DNA of 63,393 nucleotides, the filler included, from Pseudovirgaria hyperparasitica (taxonomy: Eukaryota), in the NCBI GenBank assembly GCA_010093815.1. It is 4 parts of 4 records of this genome, joined end to end, with 100 filler letters (N's around TTAATTAATTAA, not from the genome) between each part and the next. Parts side by side here need not be neighbours in the genome. Positions count along the whole stretch, not along the records: positions 1 to 17,894 come from ML996600.1; 3 more parts are not named here. One strand, 5' to 3'. The position numbers and the translations under genes were made by a program. Shown one piece after another: positions 1 to 49,382 of the stretch. The stretch's first letter is position 1. Every line of letters starts with the position of its first letter. The notes under the pieces are model-generated. The model did no database searches. It saw only the letters and a program-made list of their open reading frames with translations, and was not told the origin of the DNA.

Positions 1-34
1 ACTGAGACCGCCTGTATCGGCGTCAGGGAAGCCA

Positions 35-433
35 TTAAACAATTCCCGCATTCGGTAACTGAAGACTGCGAATGTCCATCCCTGCAAGTACATAGCGATA
101 GCCCCATCTCTGATTCTTTCGTCGCCCCACGAAGGGAAGACCGAAAAGTCTACGGATCTCTATCCACCTAGGCTCTAGTTCGACTCGGACATGATATGCT
201 AGCTTTGGAGTTATACGATAAAGAAGTTCTCCATCCCCCGTGTCAAAGGTCTTTAGTAGCGTGCGAGCCAGGGCTGTGCCCCCAGGGCAGAAGACAAGAC
301 GCCTGGGTTTGCATTGCATACATGTTAGAAGATGATCTTCATAACAGGTAATGATTGATATCTCGTACTCAGTAGGCCCTCGAGAAATTGATCTGACAAT
401 TTGAGGTAAGAAATGGACCGTGGGAGAAGCCAT
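35..433 (-). CDS. Small hypothetical protein with His/Cys motif (EDHLLTCxxC...CPGG...VRVEL)
   Basis: Open frame from ATG at 433 to TAA at 35-37; a frameshifted paralog lies at 51975-52373; TATA-like TATATA about 60 nt upstream (492-497). Confidence 0.55.
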   Translation of the reverse strand: MASPTVHFLPQIVRSISRGPTEYEISIITCYEDHLLTCMQCKPRRLVFCPGGTALARTLLKTFDTGDGELLYRITPKLAYHVRVELEPRWIEIRRLFGLPFVGRRKNQRWGYRYVLAGMDIRSLQLPNAGIV

Positions 434-881
434 GCTTGTCAGTAACTCGTTGTTAACATTCAACTACTCGAAGCGTATGGCGAGACGAATCTATATAAGG
501 CAGGCTTTCCTATCTACTACCCTTGCGTGATTGATCCTGACATTCCACGCCACTCTCCTTGTGTGAACTTTTATCCACACCATCCAGTTTCATCTGTCCT
601 CGCGCGGCGCGACAGTCTCATAATGGTAGCAGATATGAATACACTGCAGTGGTCGCGGTCCGGCCCATTTTTATTCCTGGTACTAAAAATAGCCGTAATT
701 TGGAAGGGCGCTTGAGACGCTTCACACATTGCGCCCCTGTCTATCCCCCAAGAGATGATGGGGTGTCACCACATTCCGAATCCTGCACCGCGCAGTCTAA
801 ATGTACGCCTTAACCACGTTCTCCTCTTCCACTGAGCTTCGTGCGCCGTATCTAAACCCCTTCTCTCAAGTGTAACGCGAC

Positions 882-1070
882 AAGCATGTCCCAGCAAGAT
901 GCTCGGTCACCTCGATTGGTCATGTACCATGACCAGTAAGCATATCCTGGAGCAACTTCAGGCGGCACACAACACTAAACGGGCATCAGATGGCATCCAG
1001 ATGCCTCGATGGATTTGATCCGTTCCAAAGGAATCACGCATGTTATATTGGCGTTCATGCTAAGCTACCA
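882..1070 (+). pseudogene. Truncated 5' remnant of the GH18 chitinase
   Basis: Encodes SQQDARSPRLVMYHDQ-intron-WHPDASMDLIRSKGITHVILAFM like the gene at 49766-51545, but lacks the signal-peptide segment and breaks off at ~1070. Confidence 0.85.
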
Positions 1071-1077
1071 GGCTAAG

Positions 1078-1533
1078 GAGCTAGTTATCGTGACGTAGGA
1101 CAGCTGTAAGAAGATGCAGCAAGCTCAGCATTAACGCCATTTTAGAGAATTTCCCCACCTACCGTGGACGACCCGTAGCGAGTTCTGTGATCCTTCGAGC
1201 GCCCCTGGAATGGAGAAATGAGTGCACACAGTGGGAAGTATCGATGGATCATGCCTGATGCCACACGCCCTCTCTTGGTCCCTGCAGTAATGAGAGCTAC
1301 AGGGCGCGCAGGACGCCTCTCTGGGATATTGACGCTTGAGGCTCAGTAAGTAGGCAACCAGTGGACCGACTTCTAGGCGAGTCTTCATTATTTTACGGCA
1401 CTCTTTAATTTGCTATCCAAGATTCTAGACGGCCAAGACTTTGGCGAGTAAACAATGGCGCCAGTGTGCGCTATAACAGAAGACTCAGTAAACAATACAG
1501 TGCTTGTCCTCCATCAATCACAGCATCCGCTAG
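1078..1533. repeat. Duplicated block, also at 55920-56420 (direct) and partly at 5785-6015 (inverted)
   Basis: Shared strings such as GTGACGTAGGACAGCTGT and GACTTTGGCGAGTAAACAATGGCGCCAGTGTGC in the copies. Confidence 0.88.
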
Positions 1534-2115
1534 TAAGAAAGTACAGTGCTCCATGTAGCCACTAGGGCACCCTTTGCTTCTTTGACACCCTCCACTAGAT
1601 TCTCCCATGACACTCGAGTGTTTCGGTGGTACCTGTGCATGTTTCCCGTGTCAACCCCAGACCTTAAGACCGGCACCAGGGCTATCAGGTCTGCGTAGAG
1701 CTCGGTATTGTTCAGTCGCGGGAAGATGAGTCCCCGTGTATCTTGAACGAGATGGGTGCGGAAATGTGCTAGATAATTATCGTGTCGCAAGAAAGTCTGA
1801 CGACATGGTCCTTTAAGACTGCATTCAGCCCTGTGCACAGTCGCACCAGACCGGTAGTGCGGCCTGCCAACAGCAATCCCCAGCCCCTCCGTACATATGT
1901 CGTCTATAACATGTGGCAATGAACAAATAGAACGGCCATAAAGATTAAGCTGCGAGTTTCGGTAGGTGACAGTATACGGACTGGAGGGTTGATTCTCGGG
2001 CCACTGGCAAGATCAGCTGCCAAACTGCTCATCTAGATACGTAGTCAGTAGAGTATGAATCCGCCTCCAGTCTCGTCCACCACGTACCTGAAACAGAGAA
2101 GTGAAATGTTGACAT
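1530..2115 (-). pseudogene. Divergent C2H2-like zinc-finger gene, one in-frame stop, 3' truncated
   Basis: ATG at 2115, GTACGT...CTGAC...TAG intron (~2033-2087), in-frame TGA at 2013-2015, then CSLKGPCRQTFLRHDNYLAHFRTH. Confidence 0.55.
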
Positions 2116-2205
2116 GACGTCTATCAACCATGAAAGAACACCACTATGCTATATTGTATCTACACCGTAGTAGGATATACTAGGCTCCAGGATTTACAGG
2201 GTTAG

Positions 2206-2345
2206 TGGAGCCGTCTAGATACTGAGCCGTTAAACCCACGATACTGAGCCATGAGATCCACCAAGTCATCGCCGCTCTCCAATCGGCTAAGCCATGCTGA
2301 GCCATAGATTCCGCTAAGCTATCTCGTAATCTATATCTGAGCCAA
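2206..2345. promoter_or_regulatory. Cluster of CTGAGCC(A/G) motifs in a divergent intergenic region
   Basis: About seven exact or near copies (2206, 2221, 2243, 2286, 2296, 2313, 2336); regulatory role is inferred. Confidence 0.4.
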
Positions 2346-2577
2346 ACCATGTCAGTCGCCTTGGCTGTACTAATGATAATACTCTTTTCCTATAGTACCG
2401 CTTGGTTCAGCCATGGCTCTGCCAAAGCCTCTTGACTTATTGCAGATAATTAAGCCTATACTGGGACAGCATATATGTGCTATCAGGCTCGCAGGAGCCT
2501 CTCCTCGAGTCTAATACAGGTACAGACCAAGCCCAGTTAGTAACGATACGACGACACGCAAATTATGCTACTAAACC

Positions 2578-3708
2578 ATGACGGACTTATGTAGGCCAAT
2601 GGAGACAAACACGCAACCATGCTCGCAACAGAGCGCTTCATGCTGGAGTCACGACCACTGGTATGGATATCATATATCTCTAGCGGATGGTTCATGCGAG
2701 ACTGTCCATTCGACCGCGCCGCAGTCACTCGAAAGAATAGAATACTCCGCTGCCAACCCTTCAAAGCCTCAATATTCTTCATATCTAATAAGGCAGACGC
2801 CTGTGGGAGACACGACAAAGGAGAATCAGTCTTGTAAGATTGCGAAAGATTGCAAGACCTTTCCGCACAAAGCGCAGGCTATCCTTGCTCAACGGTTCAC
2901 GCAGCGGCTCGCAGACCCATATCTTACTAGGCAGGAGAGTGAAGAGCTTGCTGCGCTCACCGATCTAAGTGTCCGTCAAGTACAAGTATATTTCGCTAAT
3001 GCTCGTGCGAGGAAGCTCTGTCGAGGACAAGCGAAAGCATCTGCAGGTACCAAGAGTGTCAAAAAGCTTGGCAAATATTCCGACTTGTGTTCTCCACATT
3101 CGAATCTCGACCCCATCCAGAACTACAGACCACCGAAGAAGCGTAGACTGATGACATCACAGCGCATTCAGCCTGATTTTACAGCATCGCTACTCCGGAC
3201 ACCGTCTTCTCCCGATCACATCTTCCAGTGCACTTTCTGTGTGCAGGACTTCAAGCGCAGGTATGACTGGGAGCGACACGAGCAAACTATACATCTCCGC
3301 TTGCAGCAGTGGATCTGCATGCCCGAAAAGGCTGCAACATCTCCATCAATCGCGAAGAAGACTCAGTGTGTATTTGGTGGAATGAACAGCCCCACGTCTT
3401 TGCATCTACAGTCACACGACCTGTGTCAATGTATCAAGAAGGAAGAATCAAGACGTACGTTCACCAGGAAAGACAAATTCATTAAGCATATTGAAAATTG
3501 CCATAAGATTTTCAATCCGAACGAGGATATCTTGTCACGATTTTCAAAGCCCCAGATCGAACCCAGTTACTGGTGCGGTATTTGTGGTTATCTTCTGAAC
3601 TCATGGAAGCACCGTGTTACGCATATCTCGGAGCACTTCAAGCGAGGCGAAGACATGCGTTTTTGGATGGCTGTCCCAGGTGCTGTGCAGTATGTCTGTG
3701 GCACGTAA
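2578..3708 (+). CDS. TALE/KN-type homeobox plus C2H2 zinc-finger transcription factor
   Basis: 376-aa ORF: DPYLTRQESEELAALTDLSVRQVQVYFANARARK homeodomain; FQCTFCVQDFKRRYDWERHEQTIH, FTRKDKFIKHIENCH and WCGICG...HISEHF fingers. Confidence 0.85.
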   Translation: MTDLCRPMETNTQPCSQQSASCWSHDHWYGYHISLADGSCETVHSTAPQSLERIEYSAANPSKPQYSSYLIRQTPVGDTTKENQSCKIAKDCKTFPHKAQAILAQRFTQRLADPYLTRQESEELAALTDLSVRQVQVYFANARARKLCRGQAKASAGTKSVKKLGKYSDLCSPHSNLDPIQNYRPPKKRRLMTSQRIQPDFTASLLRTPSSPDHIFQCTFCVQDFKRRYDWERHEQTIHLRLQQWICMPEKAATSPSIAKKTQCVFGGMNSPTSLHLQSHDLCQCIKKEESRRTFTRKDKFIKHIENCHKIFNPNEDILSRFSKPQIEPSYWCGICGYLLNSWKHRVTHISEHFKRGEDMRFWMAVPGAVQYVCGT

Positions 3709-4283
3709 AGGCTCCATCATTCCTTCATCGTTTATGGAGCCAATCCACGGACATAGCTGGTAGTACCCTCACGCTCAGCTCCCCCATCGGTAGTAAGATC
3801 TGCGACCGCCTGGTCTACACGGACAAACGTTGCCATATTAAGCAGTGAGGTAGCGACCAGAGCAAGCTCTCCTTCAGGCTGCTTCCTGACCGACACGATA
3901 CTTGCACATCCTAGGAAAAGCACAGCGCCGAGGTGAACCAGGCTTCCACTGATTGCACCAGCAGCCCCTTGATGTTGAATCGGGACATGGGCTGTCAACT
4001 ATATGGACTAGGCTAGGCTCTAGGCGGGAGGGATAATACAAACAGCTGCTCGATGGAGAAAGGGATTCTACTGTACTAACCAGTTCCAACGGCGTTGTAA
4101 ATTGTACATTAGAAAGCACCTGGACTCTTTTGTAAAAAAGACTATTGGGCGAAGAATATAACAGCTTAGACTAGAGGAGGCACAGCTTGTAGAGTAAAAA
4201 ATAACTCTACCTAGTAATGCTCGCAACCTACGGCCAATTCTAACAGCTGGTTTGAATGCTCCTGACGGGTGGTCCACCTCGTC

Positions 4284-5255
4284 GACTGAGCGGTTGTATG
4301 ATCCGACAACTGCTTGAGAGACTACTTCGCGAGGGCTGGTTATACCTTGATGAGATGGCTAGATGGGTATACGAAGAGTTCAACCTCACTGTATCCTAAC
4401 AGCTTCTATCTAGAGAGTTGTCTGAGCGAAGCTGGGATCGTAAGCTATTGAAACGTATTAGTAGTGCGCGCCCAGAGACAGCGCCCCCTTCATACCTTGA
4501 GGACATAGCGGAGCTACCAGCAGACTCTTACGTGTTCTTGGATGATGGGTGGAGGCGTCGAGCCAGAGCACCAAAAAGACAGACTCCGACTAAGTTTGGT
4601 ACTCTCGATCGAGGAAGTTTATTTCTCGACGGAAGAGTTCTATACCTGGGTAGAGGTATACCTACTGCCTGCCCTTGCGGTAAAATACCCCGGACGTGCG
4701 ATGACAATCATTATGGATAATCTCGCGCTTCATACGAATTAACAGATTGAGCCACTAATACTCAGCGCTGGCCATATTGTACGATATACGCCACCGTACT
4801 CACCTGGCTTCAATTCTATTGAGCTTTAATAAAGGCATGGATTCGTAGGTGGTACATCTGGACGCGTCACCAATCTCGAACTTTTGAGGACTTCCTCCAC
4901 ATCACCTTTACACATAGCCACACCGACTAGTGAGCTCTACGCTTCGTTACACATGCCGCAGATGGGAATTACATTGATGAGACGCTCCGGTAGAGGGTAG
5001 TAGCTGATTTGGATAGGTTCAGACAGGGTAGAGGTGGTAGAGAGGCTACTGAAGTTGAGGATACTGGGAGACTTTTCTATGAACTCATTATGTGATTCAC
5101 TCGTCGGCGAGTCGGCGATCGCTTAGCTAGCCGGTAATAATCTATACATATGTCCATCTGAGGCACTATTCGTTGAGTATGTAGCCTTAATATATGAATA
5201 TATACTCCTAAATACACTCCAAGAAACACCATACCATCCCTATCTAAACACCAGT
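4284..5255 (+). mobile_element. Degenerate Tc1/IS630-like (DD34E) transposon relic, copy 1
   Basis: YVFLDD, IIMDNLALH and YTPPYSP motifs broken by stops and deletions; homologous to 14500-15630 in inverted orientation. Confidence 0.85.
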
Positions 5256-5569
5256 TGTGCTAAGTAGAACACCTGCTGTCTTCGCAGCTTCATAATGAGC
5301 AGCTCCAGGCCGAGCCATCTCCTGAATATAGCAGTACTGTTGGAGATTGTGGGAAGATTGTTCCTTGATTGATCTGATTTCCTCCCCCTCCTTTCACTGA
5401 GAGGTTGACTGTTTTTATAGACATGATTTCAGGCTTCAAGGCCTCAATTCAACCCTGAAGCCTTATCCGCCGATATACAGTTATCAGCTTGCTTACATAA
5501 TACACTACGGTCGAGGATTGCTCGGCCAACTTTGTCATTGCCTTGTATATAGGTCTCTATTCTGACAAA

Positions 5570-6015
5570 TACAGAGCTCTTCGCAGACCTGATAGCCCTG
5601 GTGCCGGTCTTGAGGTCTGGGGTTGACACGGGAAGCATGCACAGGTACCACCGAAACACGCGAGTTTCATGGGAGAATCTAGTAGAGCATGTCAGAGAAG
5701 CAAAGGGTGCCCCTGTGGCTGATCAGATACTTGTTACCATCTTGGGAGCTTGCTTGAGACATGATGCTCGTGTAGCGCGGTCGTTTTGCTCTTCTGTTAT
5801 AGTGCACACTGGCGCCATTGTTTACTCGCCAAAGTCTTGGCAGTCTAGAATCCTGGACAGCAAATTAAAGATAGTCGAAAGGCTCAGTGCTGACCAGCTT
5901 AGTAGACCTTGTCACAGTGCCGTAAAATAATGAAGACTCGCCTAGAAGTCGGTTCACTAGCTGCCTACTTACTGAGCCTTACAGAGAGGCTTCCTGCGCG
6001 CCCTGTAGCTCTCAT
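5570..6015. repeat. Inverted partial duplicates of 1555-1710 and 1290-1485
   Basis: Same peptides in the ORF track (PVLRSGVDTG.MHRYHRNTRVSWENLVE; MKTRLEVG.L.AYLLSL) on the opposite strand. Confidence 0.85.
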
Positions 6016-6439
6016 CATCAAGCAACTTATACCTATTACAATACATCAGCGAAATGGCACACAGCGTCGGCATGTGGGGCCTGAGCCTTTTCAGACTGTC
6101 TCTTCCGGACATCAGTCTTTTCGAAACTTAGTGTTTAAAGCACTCTTAGTTGTACTTACGCCCGGCAGAATTCTGGAGGGTACTGAATTTCTAGTGTCCG
6201 CCTTGATAGCAAGATGCAGTCGCAAACGCCTCTCGAACCATTGTCAGCGACTTCCCTAGGAGCAGAAACAGAGTTTGAAGTCTTCTCAGATGACCCCTAT
6301 GCTATCTACATACCCCAGCAGCTCAATTATTCCGGGTTGCCTTCTAGGACTTCGAACCAGGTCTGTGGCTCCTACTACCCAGATATGTCAGTAGCCGAAG
6401 ATCCATAGAGCCCAGTATCGGACGCATCAATTGACCTAG

Positions 6440-6952
6440 GGCAACGATTGGACAAGTCAAATTAGCGGTGAGCCAGCGACAAGCGTTCAATTCAATGTGG
6501 ATTGGAATATGCCCTTGGCCAATTACCCGCCAGCATCTCATTCAGTCACAGTACAGACACACCATCGACGGCAGAGACCGAGTACTAGCTACGTCTGCGA
6601 GATACCTATGGAGACACGTACTGGCTGGTCGCCGTGTTCTAAGCAGTTTCGGAAGGAGAATCGCTATCTACAACACTTCGGGTCACACCTGGTGCCAAGT
6701 AGAAATAGTCTCTACCTGCCATGGCTTGTGCTTGACAACGACGAAATTCAGGAAATGGGTGATGCAGACATTGTGGCGTTTGTGGAGAGCCTTCGGTCGG
6801 ACATGTTGAGCGCAAAGCAATGGAATAAATTTAGACACCGCGTTAGTAAAGACGAGAACACCCGTAAGAAGAAGAAAATGACAAGTTATCGATTTAGCAC
6901 AGGCTATTACCTATGTAATGGAATCCACGAGCCCTTCGACGGCAATAAGTAG
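6440..6952 (+). CDS. Divergent C2H2-like protein (5' end uncertain, possibly a pseudogene)
   Basis: YVCEIP...PCSKQFRKENRYLQHFGSH; near-identical paralog at 48245-48742 that has 21 extra internal codons. Confidence 0.5.
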   Translation, partial: GNDWTSQISGEPATSVQFNVDWNMPLANYPPASHSVTVQTHHRRQRPSTSYVCEIPMETRTGWSPCSKQFRKENRYLQHFGSHLVPSRNSLYLPWLVLDNDEIQEMGDADIVAFVESLRSDMLSAKQWNKFRHRVSKDENTRKKKKMTSYRFSTGYYLCNGIHEPFDGNK

Positions 6953-7299
6953 AATCTGCATTGGACGGAGGAGTTATTCAACAATTTAATCTCAGTTCCA
7001 CTCATCGTTCTTATTTTGATGACTCTAGAAATCGGAGAGAGCAAGGTGTTAGACATGACTTGTGAATTAAGTTAGAGGAGGAATAGACGAAGTGAGAAAT
7101 GTGCCTCTGTACATGAAGCTCATTCCGCTCATCCGACGATCGTCTAACCTAAGGGAGGTTATTTACGCGGAGACGTGTAACTTAAGGCCCTATATATACT
7201 TATATTAGTCGAATATATACCTAATAATAGCACGTGCTCGTTAATTTAGCTAACTTAGTCTCCCTATGTCCTTCCTAATTGGGTAATCTTATATAGTAT

Positions 7300-7434
7300 A
7301 AGCGATTCAATTTAACATAAGCAATCTCAATCCCTTAGCATAGATTCCAAGCTCAATCCGTACTTTTAGGGTGACTAATCATACAATCCTAATCTAGGCC
7401 CTCGGATTGTATCCGATTGTATATGCCGAAGTCT
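7300..7434 (-). mobile_element. Possible DNA-transposon (hAT-like) terminal remnant
   Basis: Minus strand starts CAGACTTCGGCATATACAATCGG, followed by several CAATC/GATTG subterminal repeats and TA-rich decayed sequence; no partner end found. Confidence 0.3.
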
Positions 7435-7495
7435 GCATCTGTCACCGTACCGTTGTATTGCTCTCAGGCAGCGCGTGTGTGTGCGGGATCATTAG

Positions 7496-7882
7496 TCAAG
7501 GGCTGCCCTTGACCGGCTCCCAGACGCTGCGAAGCCCGCGAGAGACATCTGACAGGTAGACGTAGCACCGCGCGGCCTGCCGATACCAGCGGAACATCGA
7601 GTTAATCGCCTCAGTGAGCTCGCTGTTGCTCGACTTGTCGATACAGCACGTATCGACCCAGAAGTACCGCAGTCCATCGGCCGCCGCCTGCCTTGCGCAG
7701 AACTGTATCTTGACATAACCCAGCTTGCCTGCAGCTCCGCCTCTCGCCATATCCTGGAAGCTGACCTCTTGCCTGTTGTCTTCGTGCCAGGTGTGGGAGA
7801 GGATTGCGTACGCTGGGGGCGAGTCGCTGTCGACCGTCTCGAGTATAAGGCGGTCGTTCTCGTCGCGCGTTAGGAGGCGCAT
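7496..7882 (-). pseudogene. Truncated HET (heterokaryon incompatibility, HET-E-like) domain gene
   Basis: YAILSHTW, YFWVDTCCIDKSS, ELTEAINSMFRWYRQAARCYVYLSDV; ends before the SxWFTRGWTLQE motif that normally completes the domain. Confidence 0.9.
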
Positions 7883-8107
7883 CGCGGGGTGCGCATGTCA
7901 AAGAGAGCGAGTAGGTTCAATACATTCGGCCAGTTCGGTGGTTTGCAGTATGAGTCTTACGACGAGGTGTAGCTGGACGTTGAGGACGGATGGAAGGTGG
8001 TTCATATACGCAAGGCAGCAATGCGATGTGCTCGAGCCTGGACTCGTCCGTTCGAGGCTCGATAGGATGTCGAGAAAACTGCACGCAGATGCTCCGTTAG
8101 AGGCGCA

Positions 8108-9044
8108 ATGCTCCATGTTCGAAATTCAACAGCGGTATTTAAGGTCTTCATTAGCCCCAAGAAGATATGGCAAGTCGCTCCAGGCCAATACGTTTATATT
8201 TCGATGCCTGGTATCGCACGTCACCGTTTTGGGTTTCTACAGTCGCATCCGTATCTGATAGCCTGGCAACTACCAAACAAAGATCTAATCTTGTTGGTAT
8301 CTCGACAATCTGGATTCAGTAACGACCTTATCACCTCTACGCCTCAATCAACGCTTGTTCTTGATGGGCCATATGGCAGTCCTTATAACCTCGGCCATTA
8401 CGATAAAGTTATATTCTTTGCGCAAGGAATTGGAATCGCTGCACATCTCCTAACCATCAAAAGTCTACTTTACGCCAACAATCAGTTGACAGCTCGGATT
8501 AGACGCCTCATTCTTATATGGTTTCTAGAAGACAAAGGTAAACTTAAATTCAGAAGGCAAAACGAATGTTAACGCGTCGTAGGTTAGAGAATTGGTTGAT
8601 ACCTATCTCAATGAGCTTTTAGATCTCGATGAAAAGGAGAAGAGACATATTTTCAACATCTGCTTATATGCACCATACGAAGCTGAGGGCGATGTGCAGG
8701 AAGGACGTCGAGGGCTTTACGTCATGCACGAGAAGCTAGACTTTTCAAGAACTATTATAGGCGAGGAACACGCAGAAGCTGGTAGTATGGCAATCTCAGG
8801 TACGTAATCATTTCTCATGCATCTAATATACTAATGGAACAGTCTGTGGCTCGGTTTCGAGAACGCTCTTCGAAAAGTGGTCATCAAAAGCAGAGATGAA
8901 ATATATTTCACAAACGTTGGGATCCACGCTATTGATACCGATTTAAGCACGGAATTTGAGGATAGGTTCACAGAGGGGGTATATAATTCGCAAGACATTG
9001 AATTAAAAGTAAGGAAGAGGGGTACAAGTATGCTAGGCGGCTAG
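8108..9044 (+). pseudogene. Ferric reductase/NADPH-oxidase-like gene, C-terminal FAD/NAD-binding part only
   Basis: PGQYVYI, QSHPYLIAW, LDGPYG, FAQGIGIAAHL motifs; GT-AG introns near 8538-8582 and 8800-8842; no transmembrane N-terminus. Confidence 0.8.
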
Positions 9045-9721
9045 CAGAAGCTAGAATCGTAGGAGGCGGCTTTTAAGTTGCCATAAGTCACTATTACCGC
9101 GGACCGATTTTTTTGGTTACAACTATGGTGAAAATCAAAAAAACTTACCTAGGCGTGCTTGGTTGAATTTTAAAACTAAATTTATTTTCTATATGGACGG
9201 CCCGCAAAGAGCACAGAAGGAAGTCGATGTCTAACTTTGACGAGTTATGGACTAAACCCACCTCCAATCCCGTTAAATCAGATCATGACGTCCTTTTGGA
9301 CAACTAGACAAGAACAAGGATAGGCTACCCTAGGCAGATGAAGAACCCCTATCACTAATAAATTTAACCATATATCGAGGATCTCACAGCTGTTCATATG
9401 TTCATGAAAATTCTGCTTCGTGCTTGGATTAAAAAAGGCACTTAAAGCTCAAGCCTAAGGTCCCGCGAAATTACAAGAGTCTTCCACAGAATGTCACTCA
9501 ATTAGGCTTTTCAGGGGCATACCCGTGATAATTGTTCTAGAGAGTACTTTAGCGTAATGCCGGTAGATCTTAAGAAGTACTTACGGTCGTGATACTTCCT
9601 GTAACATTAACTCCATCCTTCGTTGTAGAATAGGCATGCCCCATAATTGTTGTCGATCCTTTCGCGGAACACCACATTGCCTAGGTGAACTCTAAAGTTC
9701 TTCGTAACATTAGTTATGACT

Positions 9722-9943
9722 TTAGTGGTAGAATGTCAGACGCACCTCGTTTTCTCCTAAAAACTTACTACTACGGACATCCAGGTCCTTAGTCCATTGC
9801 TGGATTTTGTGTGAAAGTTTCTTGAAGCCCCCCTGATCCTTGTCTTTGAATCGGCACATTGCAGTATGATCCGCTTCTATCGCTTCCGGCTCGATGCTTT
9901 CTAAAGAAGCGGAATCTTTTGGCACAATTACACCTATCTTCAC
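9722..9943 (-). pseudogene. Fragment: C-terminal end of an alpha/beta-hydrolase (SesB-like NLR effector) domain
   Basis: IVPKDSASL...IEADHTAMCRF matches the typical end of this domain, including the catalytic His region. Confidence 0.6.
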
Positions 9944-9974
9944 TTTCCCCTTGTAAAGTGCAAACTGCTCAAAG

Positions 9975-10602
9975 AAGCAGGCAACTTGTGCGATGGAAGC
10001 AAGATCAAGGTTGCTATGCGATGCACAAGCTGGTGCGCGCGTGGGAATGGGAGCAACTGGATGCGGCAGAGCAGCAGGAATACGGGATAAGCTCGCTGCA
10101 GTTAGTGTACAACGCTATACAACTGTGCGACCAGACACCCCAAGCGAAGCTGCGCCTACTGGCGCATGCGGTTGCGAACTTCACTGCAACGACACGACAC
10201 GAGCACATGTTCCACGCCTCAGCGACCTTGGCTGCCATCGGATGGGTAGAGAAACTGGGTCATTTCGCCGATGGAACGGGTCAACTATCTGAAACATTCA
10301 TGTTTGAGGCATTTACGTATGGGCAGATGAAAGCGGTTCTTGGCCAAGAACACCCCTCCACGCTAATAGCAATGAGCAACCTTGCAGGCACCCTGAATGA
10401 CCAGGGAAAGATGGATGAAGCAGCGGCGATGAAGAGCGAGGCGTTAAATAAGATGAGAAGCAAGCTTGGTGAGGAACATCCAGAAACGTTGATGGTAATG
10501 AAAAGTCTTGCAGCAACGCTGAGAGATCAGGAAACGACGGACGATACTGTAATTATACAAAGAGAGGTATTGGAGAAGCTACAGATGCTGGTCCTGATGT
10601 AG
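9975..10602 (+). pseudogene. Fragment of NB-ARC/TPR NLR gene (winged helix plus kinesin-light-chain-like TPRs)
   Basis: MHKLVRAW motif; TPRs VLGQEHPSTLIAMSNLAGTLNDQGK and KLGEEHPETLMVMKSLAATL; no P-loop upstream. Confidence 0.8.
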
Positions 10603-10604
10603 GG

Positions 10605-11002
10605 ACTTTCGCCAGAATCGATGCCGCTCATCCTGACAACGGAGCTCTCATAGGTACGTGTACCTACAAACCGAAAGCTCATAGCTTACACGCGCAGGCG
10701 CACTGGAGCGACTGGCGAGTGCCGTGTTGGTTTTGTCGGGAAAGATCGACTTAATGCTAGACAAATGCAACGAGACTGATGAGAACATTCTGGCCGTGCT
10801 TAGAGGGCATGAGATGATTCAGGACAGGCTGAAGACGACTGACGAGCCACAAATCTCATCAATTAACTCCAGACTGAGGAAAGAAAAAGATGAGCTAAGT
10901 GGGGATGTCAACGAAGATGATAGCAGGGAGAATAAGCGCAAGGCAGATGATCTAGATAATACAGCTGATGCCCGCAAAAGGCAAAAACGTATCCATTCTT
11001 AG
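10605..11002 (+). pseudogene. 3' fragment of an unknown coiled-coil/charged protein
   Basis: GTACGT...CAG intron at ~10653-10698 leading into the 92-aa frame ending KRKADD...RKRQKR. Confidence 0.35.
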
Positions 11003-11192
11003 CCTCTTCATGCGAGTAGGATACAGACTGCTGCGGTCAGACAGGACGTGTACATTCCCTATAGAGCGACCGTTGTGGAGAAAGAGTGGTAGGGAATGGT
11101 CCAGGCTTAGACCTCAACGACAGCACCATTCTTTGCCAGCATCTGAGTTCCTGTAAAGATTATTAACCCGAGGCAAGACGGTATGGCGACTT

Positions 11193-13535
11193 TCATGTTG
11201 CGCCTAAAACCTTGAGTACGTGGAGCCTCTCTTGAATGAACGCTGTGGCCTCGGAGTTCCTACTCGTCGGTGGCTTCTCTGTCTGTCTCTTCCGCTTTCG
11301 GTTTGGAGATACTTCGCCGAGAGGCGACCTGACCTCCGGCATACGCGCCCGCTCAAAGTCAATGATGGCCACTCGTCGCTCGGCTGGGCACCACAGGACG
11401 TTTCGCAGCTCCAGGTCGCGATGAAGCACCCCGTGCTGATGGATGGAACAGGTCGCTCGTTCCACCTGGGCGCGAATCTCGGCTGAGTGTCTTGCAAGGA
11501 TCTCTCGCGAGATCTTCACGCCACCGAAGCTCATGAACATCATGTGCGTCAGCTCGGCGATCCCGTCATAGTTATAAGGGTGCGTGAGATCGATGTTCCC
11601 AAGGTGCACCGGCACATGCTCCCCTTGGATCGAACGCAGGCGACCATAGACAGCGGCCTCATGTCTGAGATATGACACAAATCCAGCCGTTGTACCCTTG
11701 GCGGCGACGGTGTATCCATGAGACGTGAGGCAGACTCGGAACAAGACGCCACGAGAGCCATGAATACGTACGCACTCCACGTCATGATCCAGATCTCTCG
11801 ACAGCTGCTTGTGCATGAGACGAAGAAAGCCTGATCGGCCGATCCGGTGATTCCGCCTTCCATGTGCCTTGACATTCGGACATTCGTGGTCCAGAGGCCC
11901 TCGCACGTTGAGGCCTCGCAGACATTTCGGGGTGCAGTATTGCCGCTTCTTGCCTTCGCCGGAGCCACCAGTGCGTCGCGTTATTCGCTGTGTCCTGGGG
12001 GTTCTCTCTTGCTTCGCTCGGCATGATGCAGGCCGTCGCGTAGAAGGCACAGGGGTGTCCGGCTCTGGTTCGGTGTCACTACTGCTCCGTTCTTGCGGCT
12101 GTAGGGGACTGCAGGACCCCGCGGCGCGTAGCGACCTCTTCCGCAGTTGAATCGGGGAATGTCTGAGCTGAATCGTGCATGATGGGGGGATGTAGTCCGA
12201 CGTGAGGCGTTCTGGGGTTGGCACCTGGTCCAGTAGCTCCTCGTACGTGACCTCCCAAGGCTCGAGCGAGGTGCGCGCGTCGCTCTTCCACTTCTGGCTC
12301 CGCGGTGTCGTCTGGATCGCCATCAGCGTCAACGCTAGCATGCGTCCAACAGCAGTCATATGCAGGCGATTGGGCTGGTCGAGTGCTGGCGTCCAGCCAG
12401 TATCCACACCAATATCATGCTTGGGTACTGAGAGGTGATAGTAGACGGTGCCAGGATCGTCAAGCACTCGGAGATAGATATAGGCTTCGCCAGTGCAGAC
12501 GCAACCGTACTCGACCCCGATCTGGATCATGTAGGAAAACGCTTGGACGATAATGGCAGCCACCAACCGCTGCAGCTTCGCTTCCACGCCTTCTGTGTCC
12601 TTCACCTGCACCACATCATCCAAGTCCATCTCTTGCAAGCCAGCGCAGATGCATGCTAGTGAAACCTTGTGTGGCGCTTTATACTCAATGATCAATGCCG
12701 GCTGGCGGTACGACTGTTCCCCCGAGCCGACGTGATAGACGCAAAACTGGTCGGCGCGAGGCCGGGATGATCTTAGTGCGGCTGGGTCAGTGTCAGCAGA
12801 GGGCACGATTGAATGAGATGGATGGTGCTGTGACTGAAGCCTGGCCGACCGCCGTTGCGCGTCGGAGATGTCTATGGCCTGAACAGCCTGTTTGATTTGA
12901 CTGTCGGGGCTCAAGGTGTTTCCATGATTCTCGAAGCTCACCGAGCCTTTGAGACCCAACGAAGATCGAAGTTCGTGATCATCCGCAATGGCAGCGACGA
13001 TCTCAGAGACCGGATCCTCCACTGTCAGACGCTGAAAGACAGTAAGATCTGACTCCGAACTACAAAGTCTTCGGCTCACAGACTGCCCTAGCTCTTCTAG
13101 TGTGTTTATGGTCTTGAAGCGACGCGTCTGAAAAAATCCTGACCTTCGAAATGTAGGCCAGATGCAGTTCTGTTGCTCCTCAAAGTCTAGCCAACGACGT
13201 ACATGGCGTGGGCGGAGTTTGTGCTGGGCATTGTCAGGATTGCCTTGTGTGGAACGTGAGGCATCAGTCTGGACCGTGAATCCCAGACACAGATGGAGGT
13301 GACAGGTATGGAGAAATTCAGGAAGTGTCGTTCTTTGGATTCTCAACTCAGCTTCCTCCCGTCTACGCTGTTCATCTTCGCGTCGCTGTTGTTCCTCGAG
13401 TTGTGCTTGTTCTGCCTGTTCGCGTCGTCGTTGCTCCTCGATTTGCGCTTGTCGTGCCTCCTCTCGAGCACGCTCTGCTTCTTCGCGTCGTCGCTGCTCT
13501 TGTTCAAAGAGCTTCTTATAGTCCGGTTCGCTCAT
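11193..13535 (-). CDS. Spok: Spok-like spore-killer protein (coiled coil, PD-(D/E)xK nuclease, Cys cluster, kinase)
   Basis: Uninterrupted 780-aa ORF: EEQRRRE repeats, TTLPEFLHTCH, RADQFCVY...IEYKAPHK, QYCTPKCLRGL...CPN...H, GSRGVLF...VAAKG...LRHEAAVY...HRDLELRN...IIDFERA. Confidence 0.88.
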   Translation of the reverse strand: MSEPDYKKLFEQEQRRREEAERAREEARQAQIEEQRRREQAEQAQLEEQQRREDEQRRREEAELRIQRTTLPEFLHTCHLHLCLGFTVQTDASRSTQGNPDNAQHKLRPRHVRRWLDFEEQQNCIWPTFRRSGFFQTRRFKTINTLEELGQSVSRRLCSSESDLTVFQRLTVEDPVSEIVAAIADDHELRSSLGLKGSVSFENHGNTLSPDSQIKQAVQAIDISDAQRRSARLQSQHHPSHSIVPSADTDPAALRSSRPRADQFCVYHVGSGEQSYRQPALIIEYKAPHKVSLACICAGLQEMDLDDVVQVKDTEGVEAKLQRLVAAIIVQAFSYMIQIGVEYGCVCTGEAYIYLRVLDDPGTVYYHLSVPKHDIGVDTGWTPALDQPNRLHMTAVGRMLALTLMAIQTTPRSQKWKSDARTSLEPWEVTYEELLDQVPTPERLTSDYIPPSCTIQLRHSPIQLRKRSLRAAGSCSPLQPQERSSSDTEPEPDTPVPSTRRPASCRAKQERTPRTQRITRRTGGSGEGKKRQYCTPKCLRGLNVRGPLDHECPNVKAHGRRNHRIGRSGFLRLMHKQLSRDLDHDVECVRIHGSRGVLFRVCLTSHGYTVAAKGTTAGFVSYLRHEAAVYGRLRSIQGEHVPVHLGNIDLTHPYNYDGIAELTHMMFMSFGGVKISREILARHSAEIRAQVERATCSIHQHGVLHRDLELRNVLWCPAERRVAIIDFERARMPEVRSPLGEVSPNRKRKRQTEKPPTSRNSEATAFIQERLHVLKVLGAT

Positions 13536-14499
13536 CTACGCTGGAAGAAGTTTACATTGTCTTCACTGGTGAGCAAACACGGACATCACTGTTCGGTCAT
13601 CCTGGCACGAATGTTCCTTCCGAGGATCTACCGCAGGCACTACTCATGCACTAACTATCAGCCAAGCTTTACCTCACTCAACTCCTTGCACGTAATATCA
13701 CCCACGCAGCTTGATCGATGGGGATGATTTCTTCTATCTGTTATGCGAATATCTTGATATCTTCATACTGGCGATAGACCCAGCGATGACTGAGGATGAA
13801 GGGATTATAGTCGCCCTAGCTACCTTTTGTGACTGGTCATTTCTCGAATTTCTAAAGTGGCTGACTTTTGTCGATAGAATTCTTTGTCCTCCAGCGCCTG
13901 GTCCAAACGGCATTTGAGATCCTCTATGGTTGACCGAGCAGCCTCTACTTCTTTGGAGGCAGCATCCAATTTTGATGCAAGTTCCAGAGATGATGAAGAC
14001 AAGCTCGTCCATACTCAACTGCTCCGTCAGATGGAGTTACAGCGCCACGGCTTTAATCCTAGTCTCCCAATACAAGCACCTATATTTCCTTAACCTCAGC
14101 CACGTCCTATCTCTGCTCATAGTTCGAATCACTCGCCAACACGTGAGATTCGCCGTAAAACGCCCCCTCAGTCTCGAGTCGTGGATCCCTCTAGTAGCCC
14201 AGCACAACCAGGACGACATCAGGCAGATGTGGTACTGTCAGCCCTCGAATGGCGTGAGGAGATTGAGAGTCACGACAAGACAAGAGCAGGGATACGCGAA
14301 CTGAGGCTATACGCAGACGATAACTGTTGTACTTACCGCCATATTGAGGAGATGACTCGGCCTGGAACTGCTTATCACGAAGACAGCAGGTGATCCACTT
14401 AGTATTTTACTAGACGCACGCCTATATCTTCGCAAGTACAAGGAGCAGCTTAAAGTAAGTGAGGCAGCGTCCTCGCTTCAAGCATTCGCTACAAATAGT

Positions 14500-15630
14500 A
14501 CTGGTAGTACGTAGGTGGAGGTGGTGTGGTGTCTCTTTACGTGTATACAGATGTATATATTCATATACTGAAGCCATATAGTCAACGAATATTACCTAAA
14601 ACGGACATATATATATATTGTATCACTGGCTATCTAAGCGACTTATTATCGCCGACTCGCCGATGAGTGATTCACATAATGAGTTCGTAGAAAAGTCTCC
14701 CAATCTCCTCAACTTCAGTAACCTCTCTACCACCTCTACCTTGCCCAAACTCATCCAAATCTACTACGACTCTCCGTCGGAGCGTCTCATCAATATAATA
14801 CCCATCTGCGGCGTGCTTGAAGAAGCGTAGAGCCCACTGATCGGCGTGGCTATGGGTGAAGGCGACGTTGAGGAAGTCCTCAAAAGTTCGAGATTGCTGA
14901 CGTGTCCAGGTGTCCCACCTACGGATCCACGCCTTTATTACCGCCCATACAAGCTCAATAGGGTTAAAGTCGGGAGAGTACGGCGGTGTATATCGTACAA
15001 TATGGCCAGCACCGAGTATGAGTGGCTCGATTCGTTGGTTCGTATGGAGGGCGAGGTTATCCATAATGATTGTCATCGCACGCCCAGGGTACTTTACCTC
15101 AAGGGCAGGTAGTAAGTATACCTCTAGCCAGGTATAGAACTCTTCCGCTGAGAAGTAACCTTCCTTTATCTAATAGCAGACAGATCCATCAACTATAATA
15201 GCACCACAGGCACTATACGTTGGTCCTCGATCGAGTGTACCAAACTCAGTCGGAGTCTATCCCTTCGGCGCTCTACCTCGACGTCTCCATCCGATTTTCT
15301 CATTAAATATAACCTCATCTAAGAACACGTAAGGGTCTGCTGGCAGCTCCGCGATGTCCTCAAGGTATGAAGCGCGTGCTGTCTCTAAGCGCGCACTACT
15401 AATACGTTTCAATAGCTTACGATCCCAACCTCGCTCAGACAACTCCTTCGATAGAAGCTGTTTGGATACAGTGAGGTTAAACTCTTCATATACCCATCTA
15501 GCCATCTCATCAAGCCCACGCGAAGCAGTCTCTCAAGTAGTTGTCGCATCATACAATCACTCAGTCGTCGCGGTGGGCCATGGCGCGCCAGCCGTGGTTT
15601 ATTACTCTGTCCGTTCTCTCGGGCCATATA
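14500..15630 (-). mobile_element. Degenerate Tc1/IS630-like (DD34E) transposon relic, copy 2
   Basis: YVFLDE; IIMDNLALH followed by 34 residues to E in YSPDFNPIE; interrupted by stops; TIRs not identified. Confidence 0.9.
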
Positions 15631-16607
15631 GTACTCTCCCCGGCCAGGACGTGATCCTGCCTACTTCTAGGTACACCAAAGGTCAGAGCCCATTGAAGGG
15701 GTGAGGTCCTTGGAGCCAGCAGTCACTACTATATACCACGCCCCGCCTTCAAGCATGGCTGCTATTCGGTTTCGCGTTGCCCCTAAGGATCTCTCCATGA
15801 TAGGCCGACCGTGTCTTGCAGGCGAGTATCCTCTGAATCCCATACGTGTACACTCGCGTGACGCGCCTAGGCGACTCAGGTATACTCTACCTACTAACCC
15901 GACTTGTTTCCACTACTCTTAATGGGTCCCTGTAGCCGCCTCTTGCCTGTATCCGTGTACCATTGTCTGTGTGCACTAGTATCCTGCCTCCCACGGTAGA
16001 CTGTGACATCTCTCGTGCGCGGGAGCCACTCTACCTATCTACGGTATAAGTGGTATCTCGTATCGAGCGAAAGGTCTTAACAGAGTCGTGCTGCTGGTGG
16101 TCTTGCTAGGCGGCTTAACAAACGTAGTTTAACACTGCAGGAGAGTTAGCCTTAACAAGTTCATCTAGTAGTAGCTTCTAGTTGCCCTCGACGTGATTTC
16201 TCGCTGATCCTCACGTTCTCAGAGCCGTTCAAGCCTCGAGGTGTCCTGTCGCGCTGCTAGGACTTCCGATTTCCCTACCCAGATGGCTAGATAGGTTCTG
16301 GCCTGCTTTCGACACAGCAGCAGCGCGTCGGGTGGCTTTCTTATCCCAGTATCCTCGTAAACTTCTCTTGACGCGTTGATTAAGAACAGGATGGAAGTAT
16401 ATGCTGTCCCAGCTGGTTGTTGTGGTGTGGTCTACTGCTGAGCTGACGCGTCGCGAGAACTCTGCAACCACCCACCCAGCGACGACAACGTCGCCATCAA
16501 TGCCGCTCCGAAACTCTTGCTACTCTCATCAGGATGAGAGCATTGCCCAGCTGCAACGACGTGGACGCGTTTCGTAAGACTCTGCAGCCTACTAAGTATA
16601 TATATAT

Positions 16608-16750
16608 ACTTCAGTTCAGTTCAATCATTTACAGTTCAATACTATCTTAAATTGAAGTTGAACTGAAGCGTCAGTTCTTGGCAAGAGGCCTCAACTGAAC
16701 TGGACTGACCAGTTCTTGAGGCGGTCGAATTGAAGTTGAACTGACTGATA
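16608..16750. repeat. Cluster of short inverted CAGTTCA/TGAACTG repeats
   Basis: CAGTTCAGTTCAA, TTGAAGTTGAACTGA (twice), ACTGAACTGGACTG; resembles a DNA-transposon subterminal region. Confidence 0.5.
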
Positions 16751-16807
16751 GGAAGTCTGAAATTTACCGCCGTATTATCCCTCCATAATATATAAAACTA
16801 TAATACA

Positions 16808-17026
16808 TGTAAGAATAGGGTAAATGGATAGTAGTGTAGCCAGATGAAACAATGAGGTGTATTCTGTCACAGAATGAATTACTGCCGAACCCTCTCGGTA
16901 TATACACAAAGGGGTGCCGATCTGCCCGGCACGTGACCGTTCACCGCCTATGACGCCATTCATCTCCTGACCCAGTCAGCTGAGATGCGTGCGGATCTGG
17001 CCCTCGCCTAATGTTGAGTCCTGACA
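16808..17026. mobile_element. Solo LTR (219 bp)
   Basis: TGTAAG...CCTGACA termini with flanking 5-mers ATACA/ATATA (TSD with one C>T change); non-RIPped island within TA-rich DNA. Confidence 0.65.
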
Positions 17027-17894
17027 ATATATAATAGAAGAAAGCTAGTATAACTAATATATAGTACTATAGATCTTTAATATTCTCTCTATATCCTTCT
17101 AGAGCGCCGTTAAATATAGGAGTATATAGATAGCTAGACCTAAGAATCTCTCTCTATAATCTACTCTCTTTACTCTTTTTCTATAATTTTGGAGATATTA
17201 TAGATAATTTAAAGTAATAAAAAGAGTATAGATATAATCTTAGGGTTATATAAGATTAGTGTATAGTAGTATTTATAATTATAGAGGTATGATATAGCGG
17301 TAATAGATAACAATGTCGTTTGGTAACCGCACTGTCTCTCTAAAAGATTTTGAGACATTTAGGACTCTTCGCCTTATTGGTTTCCATTTACAATGTTTTA
17401 CTGAGTTGCATAGGGTTGTTAACCAGCTCAAATCCATCCAGATCATGCACTGCACTGGCGTTGCGCGATTCCTGAGCCAGATACCACCTGATACGCATGG
17501 ACGAGTTCGAATGTTGTTTGCATTACAGTCATACTGCATCAACTACAAGTGCTATTAAATGGTTTCTTGGGAGAGTTCGTGGTCTACATAAACTAGGACG
17601 GTCTTCACGTCATCCTCTATTCGTCGTCTTTAACAATCATATCTCACTTTCCTACTCCCTTGAGACAGGTACATATGTACTGCGCGAATTTAGGCCTTCG
17701 ACGTAGCGGAAAGTATGAGTTAGGGCAACCTAGAACAAGAAGTCACTATTGAGTATAACGAGAATAAGGACATGTACACGACGATAGTAGGAAAGTCTCT
17801 ACACCGTGTTTCAAAGTCCGAGATAGAACTTGCACCTCATTCTCGATGACAGGGCGCTCATAGGAAACATGGTTAGGCGGGCTATGGAAGCAAG

Positions 17895-17994
17895 NNNNNN
17901 NNNNNNNNNNNNNNNNNNNNNNNNNNNNNNNNNNNNNNTTAATTAATTAANNNNNNNNNNNNNNNNNNNNNNNNNNNNNNNNNNNNNNNNNNNN
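17895..17994. other. Artificial scaffold linker
   Basis: 44 N + TTAATTAATTAA (six-frame stop) + 44 N; identical construct occurs three times. Confidence 0.97.
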
Positions 17995-48144: not shown

Positions 48145-48244
48145 NNNNNNNNNNNNNNNNNNNNNNNNNNNNNNNNNNNNNNNNNNNNTTAATTAATTAA
48201 NNNNNNNNNNNNNNNNNNNNNNNNNNNNNNNNNNNNNNNNNNNN
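48145..48244. other. Artificial scaffold linker
   Basis: 44N-TTAATTAATTAA-44N. Confidence 0.97.
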
Positions 48245-48742: not shown

Positions 48743-49082
48743 GTATGCGTAGACCCAGAAGCACGCTTCCGAAGGAACACCCAATCCGTAGCGTGCTGGA
48801 ATGGACGGAGAATAGGTGTATCCGGAAAAGAACAAGCCATAAGATGCCCCTATCAGAAGCTTTCAAAGCAATGGACTCTCGGAGATCCTGCTGCTCATAC
48901 ATTTGTTTCCCAAATTCATGGTGATGCGGACCTCGAATGGTATATCATGTACGTCACGCGGACTACTCGCGTACTGTTCGTGGAATGATCTGTATTGTAC
49001 ATAGCCTATCATCCCTCTGTCGCAATCACATCATCGGCTACCCTATCTCTTCTCAGTACATTCTCCCAGATGATCAGCGGCT

Positions 49083-49271: not shown

Positions 49272-49382
49272 GCTTACGAGTCAGGTAGGGCTATTTCGCA
49301 TAAAGTACCAAGTTGCGAAGTATACCCCAGGTAAAGAGCTCATACCAAGTGACTTACGGTAATGCATGCTCAGTCACTAAGG

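What the first reader, a model, noticed from the sequence alone, without database searches (positions are those of the whole stretch)
11193..13535. Intact Spok-type toxin-antidote gene amid decayed neighbours
Seen: one uninterrupted 780-aa ORF while the neighbouring HET, FRE, NLR and Tc1 sequences are all truncated or disrupted. Known: Podospora Spok meiotic drivers have the same order of coiled coil, PD-(D/E)xK nuclease (needed for killing), Cys cluster and kinase (needed for resistance) and can travel in Starship elements. Here the nuclease D/E-x-K (RADQ...EYKAPHK), three cluster cysteines (CTPKC...CPN) and the kinase HRD/DF motifs are all retained. Inference: a possibly active, uncharacterised spore killer or addiction module.
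Basis: partly seen in the sequence, partly recalled or inferred. Interest (0 to 1): 0.85.

Follow-up and report, generated by a model that had tools for sequence, protein, structure and literature searches.

The report
Intact, expressed fungal Spok-family gene
This is an intact and apparently transcribed member of a known family of fungal "selfish" genes that encode both a DNA-damaging poison and its antidote; it belongs to a distant branch of the family for which I found no functional test.

Summary
The 780-codon ORF is real, on the minus strand (13535→11193). It is a Spok-family gene. It aligns over 721 aa at 34% identity (E 2e-107) to a curated Fusarium Spok, with nuclease D262/E284/K286, QxxxY, the Cys cluster and kinase D707 in register. 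Predicted folds match restriction-endonuclease nuclease domains and RIO-like kinases. Podospora SPOKs were not retrieved, so they were not aligned. New evidence: contigs from one sample show a spliced minus-strand transcript with an unspliced CDS. The genome holds two more intact paralogs and five broken loci. dN/dS against the nearest paralog is 0.16 overall and 0.05 in the nuclease. The three paralogs form one clade in a mostly Dothideomycete subfamily, well outside the Fusarium Spok clade. Context needs correcting. The window is stitched from separate contigs, so the RIP-damaged block is not a neighbour. HET, FRE, NLR and Tc1 remnants are confirmed, but a near-complete homeodomain ORF and an intact Gypsy pol share the scaffold. 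No Starship captain was found there. Most likely it is a working nuclease-toxin/kinase-antidote gene (about 55%); activity is untested. New member of a known, very large family.

The parts
11193..13535 (-). Spok-family CDS, 780 aa, intronless (P0001)
   Evidence: contigs of X3/X4 cross the CDS with 0 mismatches and 0 gaps
13338..13520 (-). N-terminal E/Q/R-rich coiled-coil helix (aa 6-66), built of short degenerate repeats
   Evidence: AlphaFold helix H6-66; repeats D1/D2; length varies among relatives
12201..13337 (-). 'Domain 1' plus PD-(D/E)xK nuclease (aa 67-445): E161, D262, E284, K286, Q331xxxY335
   Evidence: fold matches BpuSI Z 10.4 (rmsd 3.7, 153 aligned), DrdV Z 8.4, V. vulnificus HsdR 3h1t Z 7.4; residues conserved in 136-145 of 145 aligned homologs
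11847..11936 (-). Cys/His cluster C534-x3-C538-x13-C552-x5-H558-x4-H563
   Evidence: three Cys and H558 in 145 of 145; SPOK3 has x7 before the last His; this spacing varies widely in the family
11331..11837 (-). RIO/Kdo-like kinase domain (aa 567-735): K613, E626, H705-R-D707-x4-N712, D726-F
   Evidence: Pfam Kdo 22.0 bits, cut-off 21.3; best fold match Rio2 Z 14.2, tied within 1 with several protein kinases; K613, E626, D707, N712, D726 in 145 of 145
11286..11303 (-). NRKRKR basic patch (aa 745-750), candidate nuclear localisation signal (inference)
   Evidence: sequence; present in the consensus of alignments A1 and A3
9195..13562 (-). Inferred transcript: 4274-nt contig with the CDS and a 1.9-kb 3' part that runs antisense over the TPR remnant
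   Evidence: record 10 (X3) and record 15 (X4, 9257-13534), one sample
9700..9745 (-). 46-nt GT..AG intron in the 3' part
   Evidence: skipped in X3/X4, present in DNA run X1
9537..9584 (-). 48-nt GT..AG intron in the 3' part
   Evidence: skipped in X3/X4, present in X1
9850..10602 (+). TPR-only remnant of an NLR-type gene
   Evidence: TPR_10/TPR_12; matches only the TPR part of an NB-ARC-TPR protein
8066..8572 (+). Ferric reductase remnant
   Evidence: FAD_binding_8 E 8e-11; matches only aa 315-455 of a 461-aa FRE frame on C35
7496..7897 (-). Truncated HET domain, abutting a repeated sequence
   Evidence: HET 1-89 of 146; 7305-7513 is repeated elsewhere
14334..15580 (-). Decayed Tc1/DDE_3 transposon; inverted second copy at about 4270-5336
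17895..17994 (.). Artificial linker marking the end of the gene's contig

Best explanation
A functional single-gene toxin-antidote element of the Spok family, from a divergent, mostly Dothideomycete subfamily. Shown here: intact CDS, family membership, both predicted folds, all catalytic residues, long-term purifying selection, in-lineage duplication with repeated pseudogenisation, and spliced contigs that indicate transcription. Inferred from Podospora and Fusarium work: the protein enters the nucleus; the PD-(D/E)xK domain (K286 = SPOK3 K240) damages chromosomal DNA; the kinase (D707 = SPOK3 D667) neutralises this while the gene keeps being expressed; a spore or hyphal nucleus that inherits the protein but not the gene is killed. 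That would favour the gene and the repeat-rich, probably accessory segment it lies on, in meiosis or in vegetative growth, while unprotected cargo around it decays.
For: 34% identity over 721 aa to FOXG_14235 (E 2e-107) and 34% over 726 aa to F. poae FPOAC1_013153; both are curated reference Spoks. A Spok homolog only 33-34% identical to Spok1/2 killed spores in Podospora. Nuclease fold hits include HsdR 3h1t of V. vulnificus, matching the best HHpred hit described for SPOK3. dN/dS against the C38 paralog: 0.16 overall, 0.05 nuclease, 0.17 kinase, dS about 0.9. Genome: 3 intact and 5 broken loci, all on scaffolds of 308 kb or less; the 3 intact ones form one clade, SH-aLRT 100. Spliced minus-strand contig with unspliced CDS. 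Spok killing acts through DNA damage and stabilises dispensable chromosomes in F. oxysporum.
Against: No activity data. 4 of 6 tested Fusarium homologs with conserved sites had no effect in yeast, although one of them, FOXG_14774, later proved active in its own host. All tested Spoks are from Sordariomycetes; this gene is separated from the Fusarium clade by several long, well-supported branches. dN/dS between paralogs records past selection, not present activity. Transcription rests on one sample whose run type is not on record, and a contig does not prove a single transcript. No captain on the scaffold. Accessory status is only suggested by scaffold size in a fragmented assembly. Some relatives sit among core genes, e.g. 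L085, L099.
Confidence: 0.55

Rival explanations
1. Antidote-only (suppressor) copy: the kinase protects against other Spoks, including its own paralogs, and the nuclease no longer kills.
For: Resistance-only Spok2 alleles exist in Podospora. Several paralogs in one genome create selection for cross-resistance.
Against: The nuclease is the most constrained domain between paralogs, 91% identical with dN/dS 0.05, against 78% and 0.17 for the kinase. All catalytic residues are kept.
Confidence: 0.18
2. A host-serving cell-death or non-self-recognition gene, or a competitor-killing gene acting after hyphal fusion: same biochemistry, but no segregation distortion. Selfish use would then be a derived trait of the Podospora/Fusarium clade.
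For: Very large, old family (2545 clusters at E<=1e-3). NLR-type NTPase or HET neighbours in 6 of 24 metagenome loci (no background control). The Fusarium paper names co-option as an alternative, though it finds it unlikely. Fusion-dependent killing benefits F. oxysporum.
Against: Frequent pseudogenes (5 of 8 loci here; 5 of 24 metagenome loci), no shared neighbours between independent loci, and near-identical proteins across fungal classes in the sister clade (Xylaria vs Corynespora 88%) fit a mobile selfish gene.
Confidence: 0.17
3. A now-inert passenger: once active, still an open frame, transcribed only because of nearby repeats.
For: Repeats start 137 bp upstream of the ATG. X3/X4 also cover non-genic pieces nearby. 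Other near-intact ORFs persist on this barely RIP-damaged scaffold.
Against: No frameshift, stop or catalytic change in 780 codons. Its branch since the split from the C38 paralog is longer (0.24 vs 0.11) but keeps all conserved residues.
Confidence: 0.1

Closest known systems
Fusarium Spok homologs (FuSpoks; reference genes FOXG_14235, FOXG_16420, FPOAC1_013153, FPOAC1_004007; PMC12693581)
   Same: Full-length alignment at 32-34% identity, same domain order, same catalytic residues, intronless CDS often given false introns by gene callers, multicopy on small or accessory-type scaffolds.
   Different: Separate deep clade; K-to-Q spacing 45 vs 53 and last-His spacing 4 vs mostly 9-11; host is a Dothideomycete; no functional data.
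Podospora Spok1-4 (PMC6660238, PMC4022471)
   Same: All published diagnostic motifs are present in the same order; Cys-to-catalytic-Asp distance 173 vs 174 using SPOK3 C493 (number recalled from the paper's mutants) and D667; nuclease fold hit to V. vulnificus HsdR.
   Different: Not aligned directly, sequences not retrieved. Podospora paralogs are nearly identical with gene conversion; these are 55-75% identical with dS of 0.9 or more. The conserved 5' UTR intron was not shown here; two 3' introns were.
Starship cargo and 'degraded Starship' regions (PMC9156397)
   Same: FRE, HET and NLR-TPR remnants beside a Spok; FRE and DUF3723 remnants on sister small scaffolds.
   Different: No DUF3435 on C36; the only captain found is on C28. 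No boundaries or target-site repeats identified.
Type I / IIG restriction-enzyme nuclease domains (BpuSI, DrdV, HsdR)
   Same: Fold of aa 66-445, Z 7.4-10.4.
   Different: 8-15% identity; fused to a kinase, not to a methylase or helicase.

Membership tests
Spok family | Full-length homology to curated Spok proteins | tested here: met
   FOXG_14235 34% over 721 aa, E 2e-107; reference status from the paper's Supplementary Table 2
Spok family | Direct alignment to Podospora SPOK1-4 | not testable with these tools
   not among the listed hits of three homolog searches; only published motif positions were compared
Spok family | SPOK2_N domain (PF27653) | tested here: met
   precomputed on the public model of this gene, P0002; top Atlas clusters 95-99% PF27653, score 0.97-0.99. 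The HMM itself is not in the local Pfam copy
Spok family | N-terminal variable-length coiled coil | tested here: met
   helix aa 6-66; length varies across homologs
Spok family | PD-(D/E)xK nuclease with catalytic Lys and QxxxY | tested here: met
   D262/E284/K286, Q331/Y335; fold matches to restriction endonucleases
Spok family | C-x3-C-x13-C-x5-H-x7-H cluster | tested here: met
   C-x3-C-x13-C-x5-H exact; last spacing is x4, the commonest value among 270 relatives (105) and variable in FuSpoks too
Spok family | C-terminal ELK-type kinase with catalytic Asp | tested here: met
   K613, E626, D707, N712, D726; Kdo over cut-off; Rio2 Z 14.2
Spok family | Patchy, multicopy, pseudogene-rich, transposon-associated occurrence | tested here: met
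   3 intact and 5 broken loci; no shared neighbours among 24 metagenome loci. Presence/absence among isolates not tested
Spok family | Intron in the 5' UTR (Podospora genes; dispensable for killing) | tested here: inconclusive
   contigs end 1-27 nt upstream of the ATG, and contigs cannot show starts
Active Spok driver | Nuclease-dependent killing | not testable with these tools
   needs expression assays
Active Spok driver | Kinase-dependent self-resistance and biased transmission | not testable with these tools
   needs assays and crosses
Fusarium/Sordariomycete Spok clade | Groups inside the clade holding the reference FuSpoks | tested here: not met
   separated by branches with SH-aLRT 99-100 on both sides; quick IQ-TREE, 50 chosen rows, midpoint root, Podospora absent
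Starship element | DUF3435 captain at the 5' end | tested here: not met
   3 of 3 DUF3435 matches lie at one locus on C28; none in 74 C36 frames of 95 aa or more. C36 has gaps and may be part of a larger region
Starship element | Boundaries with target-site direct repeats and TIRs | not tested
   needs an empty-site allele from another isolate
Degraded Starship (3 or more hits to DUF3723/FRE/PLP/NLR, no captain) | Three or more conserved cargo genes | tested here: inconclusive
   FRE, HET and TPR-NLR remnants within 4 kb; fragments only, not placed in Starship-specific clades; definition

The most novel reading that the evidence does not exclude
The large Dothideomycete/Eurotiomycete/Leotiomycete branch of Spok-like genes, for which I found no functional test, is made of working nuclease-kinase addiction modules. 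In this rust mycoparasite three long-diverged paralogs (55-75% identical) act as independent specificities during vegetative growth and hold captain-less Starship-derived or accessory segments in place. The pair with a 91%-identical nuclease but more diverged domain 1, Cys cluster and kinase (74-78%) would be a natural experiment for what sets resistance specificity. 'Domain 1' would be part of the nuclease fold, supplying the motif-I Glu (E161), not a separate domain.
Probability: 0.3. Interest if true: 0.6.

Novelty: new member of a known kind. Interest (0 to 1): 0.33.

Why it matters
In the papers I read, Spok function has been shown only for Sordariomycete genes (Podospora, Fusarium). How one protein both kills and protects, and why some Spoks cross-protect, is still open. 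A working gene from this distant subfamily would extend single-gene toxin-antidote drive to hundreds of uncharacterised fungal proteins now labelled 'hypothetical', 'protein kinase' or 'BUD32'. The three paralogs offer a compact panel for mapping specificity. As a single locus it is not surprising: it is one of a very large family in a typical setting. A practical gain is that the public gene model (P0002) removes two conserved segments as apparently false introns and should be corrected.

Tried and rejected
Podospora SPOK sequences: three homolog searches listed none. P0150 was chosen for SPOK3-like motif spacing but proved not to be Podospora-like. Local Pfam gave only kinase hits for the protein; a profile search of solved structures listed only kinases in its best 60. 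Foldseek on the whole model listed only kinases and on the nuclease part gave nothing at E<=0.001; only the VIA-align wide search found the nuclease fold. No RNA holder listed among the 5 runs; the RNA nature of X3/X4 is inferred from the joints. Depth values were not used to rank expression. X5 (organism B) gave five short pieces at about 93-97% over the gene only, too sparse to judge presence of the flanks. RIP between paralogs rejected: CpA is the rarest context, 42 of 258 C/T changes. Gene conversion as the cause of nuclease similarity rejected: dS there (0.91) equals the gene average. A composite transposon formed by the two inverted Tc1 copies was considered, but they are only about 85% alike. 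A minus-strand frame at 9725-10114 looked by eye like a lipase-type NLR N-terminus (recalled motif) but had no Pfam hit. 0 of 24 metagenome loci showed DUF3435 in the scanned flank frames. The careful tree did not finish; the quick tree was used. No complex prediction was run. Literature searches for tests of Spoks outside Sordariomycetes (judged from listings only) found none; this is not proof of absence. bioRxiv supplements were closed and may hold relevant alignments.

Full report
Observation. Window 11193-13535 is one 780-codon ORF on the minus strand; the plus strand is closed. The window is not one molecule: three N44-TTAATTAATTAA-N44 linkers split it. Bases 1-17894 equal G000:C36:9236-27129, a gap-bounded contig in a 62,323-bp scaffold; 48245-59676 comes from C38; the RIP-damaged block from 17995 is not what follows on C36. 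Within the true contig the HET, FRE, NLR-TPR and Tc1 neighbours are fragments. But a homeodomain/C2H2 ORF is nearly full length (376 of 393 aa against a 95%-identical copy on C39), and C36 also has an uninterrupted 1451-aa Gypsy pol. 'Intact amid decay' is therefore true locally, not for the whole scaffold.

Identity. The nearest named proteins are labelled Pseudovirgaria hyperparasitica (P0002-P0004), followed mainly by Dothideomycete proteins at about 45-51%. P0002 is this gene under another model. It lacks aa 112-122 and 152-168, which hold W115 and E161, each conserved in 143 of 145 aligned homologs; these look like false introns, a known problem for Spoks. PF27653, present on all 120 listed hits, is SPOK2_N, and the top Atlas clusters score 0.97-0.99. 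The family is very large: 2545 clusters at 50% identity with E<=1e-3 and 728 with E<=1e-30. I reached the Fusarium Spok clade through a Daldinia relative. FOXG_14235, FOXG_16420, FPOAC1_004007 and FPOAC1_013153 are marked as reference Spoks in the supplement of PMC12693581. The protein aligns to FOXG_14235 at 34% over 721 aa, E 2e-107, with nuclease, Cys and kinase motifs in register, and to the F. poae proteins at 32-34%. Podospora SPOK1-4 were not retrieved, so comparison with them rests on published motif positions.

Structure. AlphaFold on a 145-sequence alignment (145 near-full-length proteins picked from the 270 then held) gave pLDDT 84.5 and pTM 0.82, with a 60-residue N-terminal helix and two disordered linkers. 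The C-terminal domain matches kinases, best Rio2 (Z 14.2, rmsd 3.4, 160 aligned), tied within 1 Z with several protein kinases. Residues 66-445 folded alone (pLDDT 88.2) match the nuclease domains of BpuSI (Z 10.4, rmsd 3.7, 153 aligned), DrdV (8.4) and V. vulnificus HsdR (7.4). Two mitoribosomal chains also rank high (8.7, 7.5; rmsd above 5), and most remaining rows are restriction-fold nucleases. The alignments span model residues 9-345, so the region called 'domain 1' in SPOK3 appears to contribute to the same fold. That E161 is the motif-I glutamate is my inference; I could not inspect coordinates. D262, E284, K286, Q331 and Y335 are kept in 138, 143, 141, 145 and 136 of 145 sequences; the three Cys, H558, K613, E626, D707, N712 and D726 in 145 of 145.

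Evolution in this genome. The protein search gave 13 matches: three full-length open copies (C36; C38, 75%; C62, 55%), broken loci on C39, C42, C26, C25 and C43, and one weak kinase-only hit (C19). All eight loci are on scaffolds of 10-308 kb. FRE matches also occur on C35, C39 and C42, and DUF3723 on C35, C38, C26 and others. The only DUF3435 locus is on C28. The three intact copies form one clade (SH-aLRT 100) inside a mostly Dothideomycete group, separated from the Fusarium clade by several branches with 99-100 support. This is a quick tree of 50 chosen rows, midpoint-rooted, without Podospora (same pattern). In the sister group, Xylaria and Diaporthe proteins nest among Dothideomycetes at 83-88% identity, suggesting cross-class transfer; not tested formally. 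Against the C38 paralog dN/dS is 0.16 overall, 0.05 in the nuclease and 0.17 in the kinase, with dS about 0.9 and no CpA bias (Nei-Gojobori counts, my own domain limits).

Expression. No run was on record as RNA. Runs X3 and X4 (one sample) each hold a contig of about 4.2 kb over 9195/9257-13562/13534 with no mismatch, skipping 9537-9584 and 9700-9745. Both skips are GT..AG on the minus strand and are present in DNA run X1. I read this as a spliced transcript of the gene with an unspliced CDS and a 1.9-kb 3' part antisense to the TPR remnant. Limits: one sample, contigs only, no strand, start or level, and a contig need not be one transcript.

Relatives' surroundings. A metagenome scan gave 79 loci (best 80 of 164 confirmed). 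I took 42 long ones (six further loci over 10 kb were left out) and reduced them to 24 non-redundant; 19 of 24 have an open frame of 690 aa or more. Pfam on 98 of 244 flanking frames (those of 230 aa or more) found an NLR-type NTPase-region or HET domain at 6 of 24 loci, FRE at 1, DUF3723 at 1 and DUF3435 at 0; others lie among core genes, and no two loci share neighbours. There is no background control, so enrichment is not shown.

Mechanism. Published work shows that SPOK killing needs the nuclease Lys and resistance needs the kinase Asp, that killing acts through DNA damage, that homologs at 33-34% identity can kill, and that a Starship-borne spok limits loss of a dispensable chromosome and aids competition after hyphal fusion. 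Against easy extrapolation, 4 of 6 Fusarium homologs were inactive in yeast, and antidote-only alleles exist. I put a working toxin-antidote at 0.55, antidote-only at 0.18, a non-driving cell-death or competition role at 0.17 and an inert copy at 0.10. The passages I read describe the genus as a hyphomycete parasite of rusts and name no sexual stage for it, so a vegetative addiction role is as likely as meiotic drive, although RIP-damaged DNA elsewhere in the assembly points to past sexual cycles.

What I saw of each paper. PMC6660238: passages, section 19, supplement list and file 6. PMC12693581: abstract, sections 5, 15, 17, 18 and supplement searches. bioRxiv 10.64898/2026.10.04.756499: abstract and sections 7, 11, supplements not seen. 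PMC9972908, PMC9156397, PMC4022471, PMC3317363: passages only. Others: search listings only.

Verdict. A real, intact, probably expressed and selectively constrained Spok-family gene in a transposon- and cargo-remnant setting typical of the family. It is a new member of a known kind. Its value lies in representing a distant subfamily for which searches showed no functional test. Interest 0.33.

Noticed in passing
window 17895-17994, 48145-48244, 59677-59776: Artificial linkers join unrelated contigs; the piece from 17995 starts with 15 CCCTAA telomere repeats and is heavily RIP-damaged.
   Followed up: yes
window 48245-59676 = G000:C38:30957-42388: This piece comes from the scaffold that carries the 75%-identical paralog about 24 kb away; it holds a GH18 chitinase fragment, also seen on C39 and C26.
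   Followed up: partly
window 2578-3708 (+): Homeobox_KN plus C2H2 ORF, 376 aa, with a 95%-identical 393-aa copy at L035:7920-9098 (C39): a recent duplicate that has escaped RIP.
   Followed up: partly
L031:4196-9864 (G000:C36 about 50.6-56.3 kb, -): Uninterrupted 1451-aa Ty3/Gypsy pol with an upstream 448-aa frame, and a second RT at L032:4720-5922. Little RIP on this scaffold although RIP is strong elsewhere.
   Followed up: no
window 4270-5336 and 14334-15580: Two decayed Tc1 copies in inverted orientation, about 85% alike, bracket the HET-FRE-NLR-Spok group.
   Followed up: partly
window 13672-13985: A 315-bp repeat (91-94% to C49, C43, C116) begins 137 bp upstream of the ATG; an ATG-TAA start-stop lies 22 nt upstream of the ATG.
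   Followed up: no
L024:8330-9668 (G000:C42 about 28.3-29.7 kb): A broken Spok 5' fragment lies beside an 89%-identical copy of the window's FRE remnant: the Spok-FRE pairing recurs.
   Followed up: partly
L033:5920-7609 (G000:C28:181920-183279): The genome's only DUF3435 captain match, in three pieces (introns or breaks not resolved).
   Followed up: no
P0005, P0010, P0013, P0006: Sordariomycete (Diaporthe, Xylaria) and Dothideomycete proteins of the sister clade are 83-88% identical, suggesting recent cross-class transfer.
   Followed up: partly
Atlas rows 4-9: Basidiomycete clusters with kinase labels score 0.95-0.96 to the protein, and an unnamed Basidiomycete cluster scores 0.94 to the nuclease part: possible more distant nuclease-kinase relatives.
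   Followed up: no
run X5 on window 11107-13140: A second organism (organism B) has short contigs about 93-97% alike over the gene, so a close homolog exists outside this assembly.
   Followed up: partly
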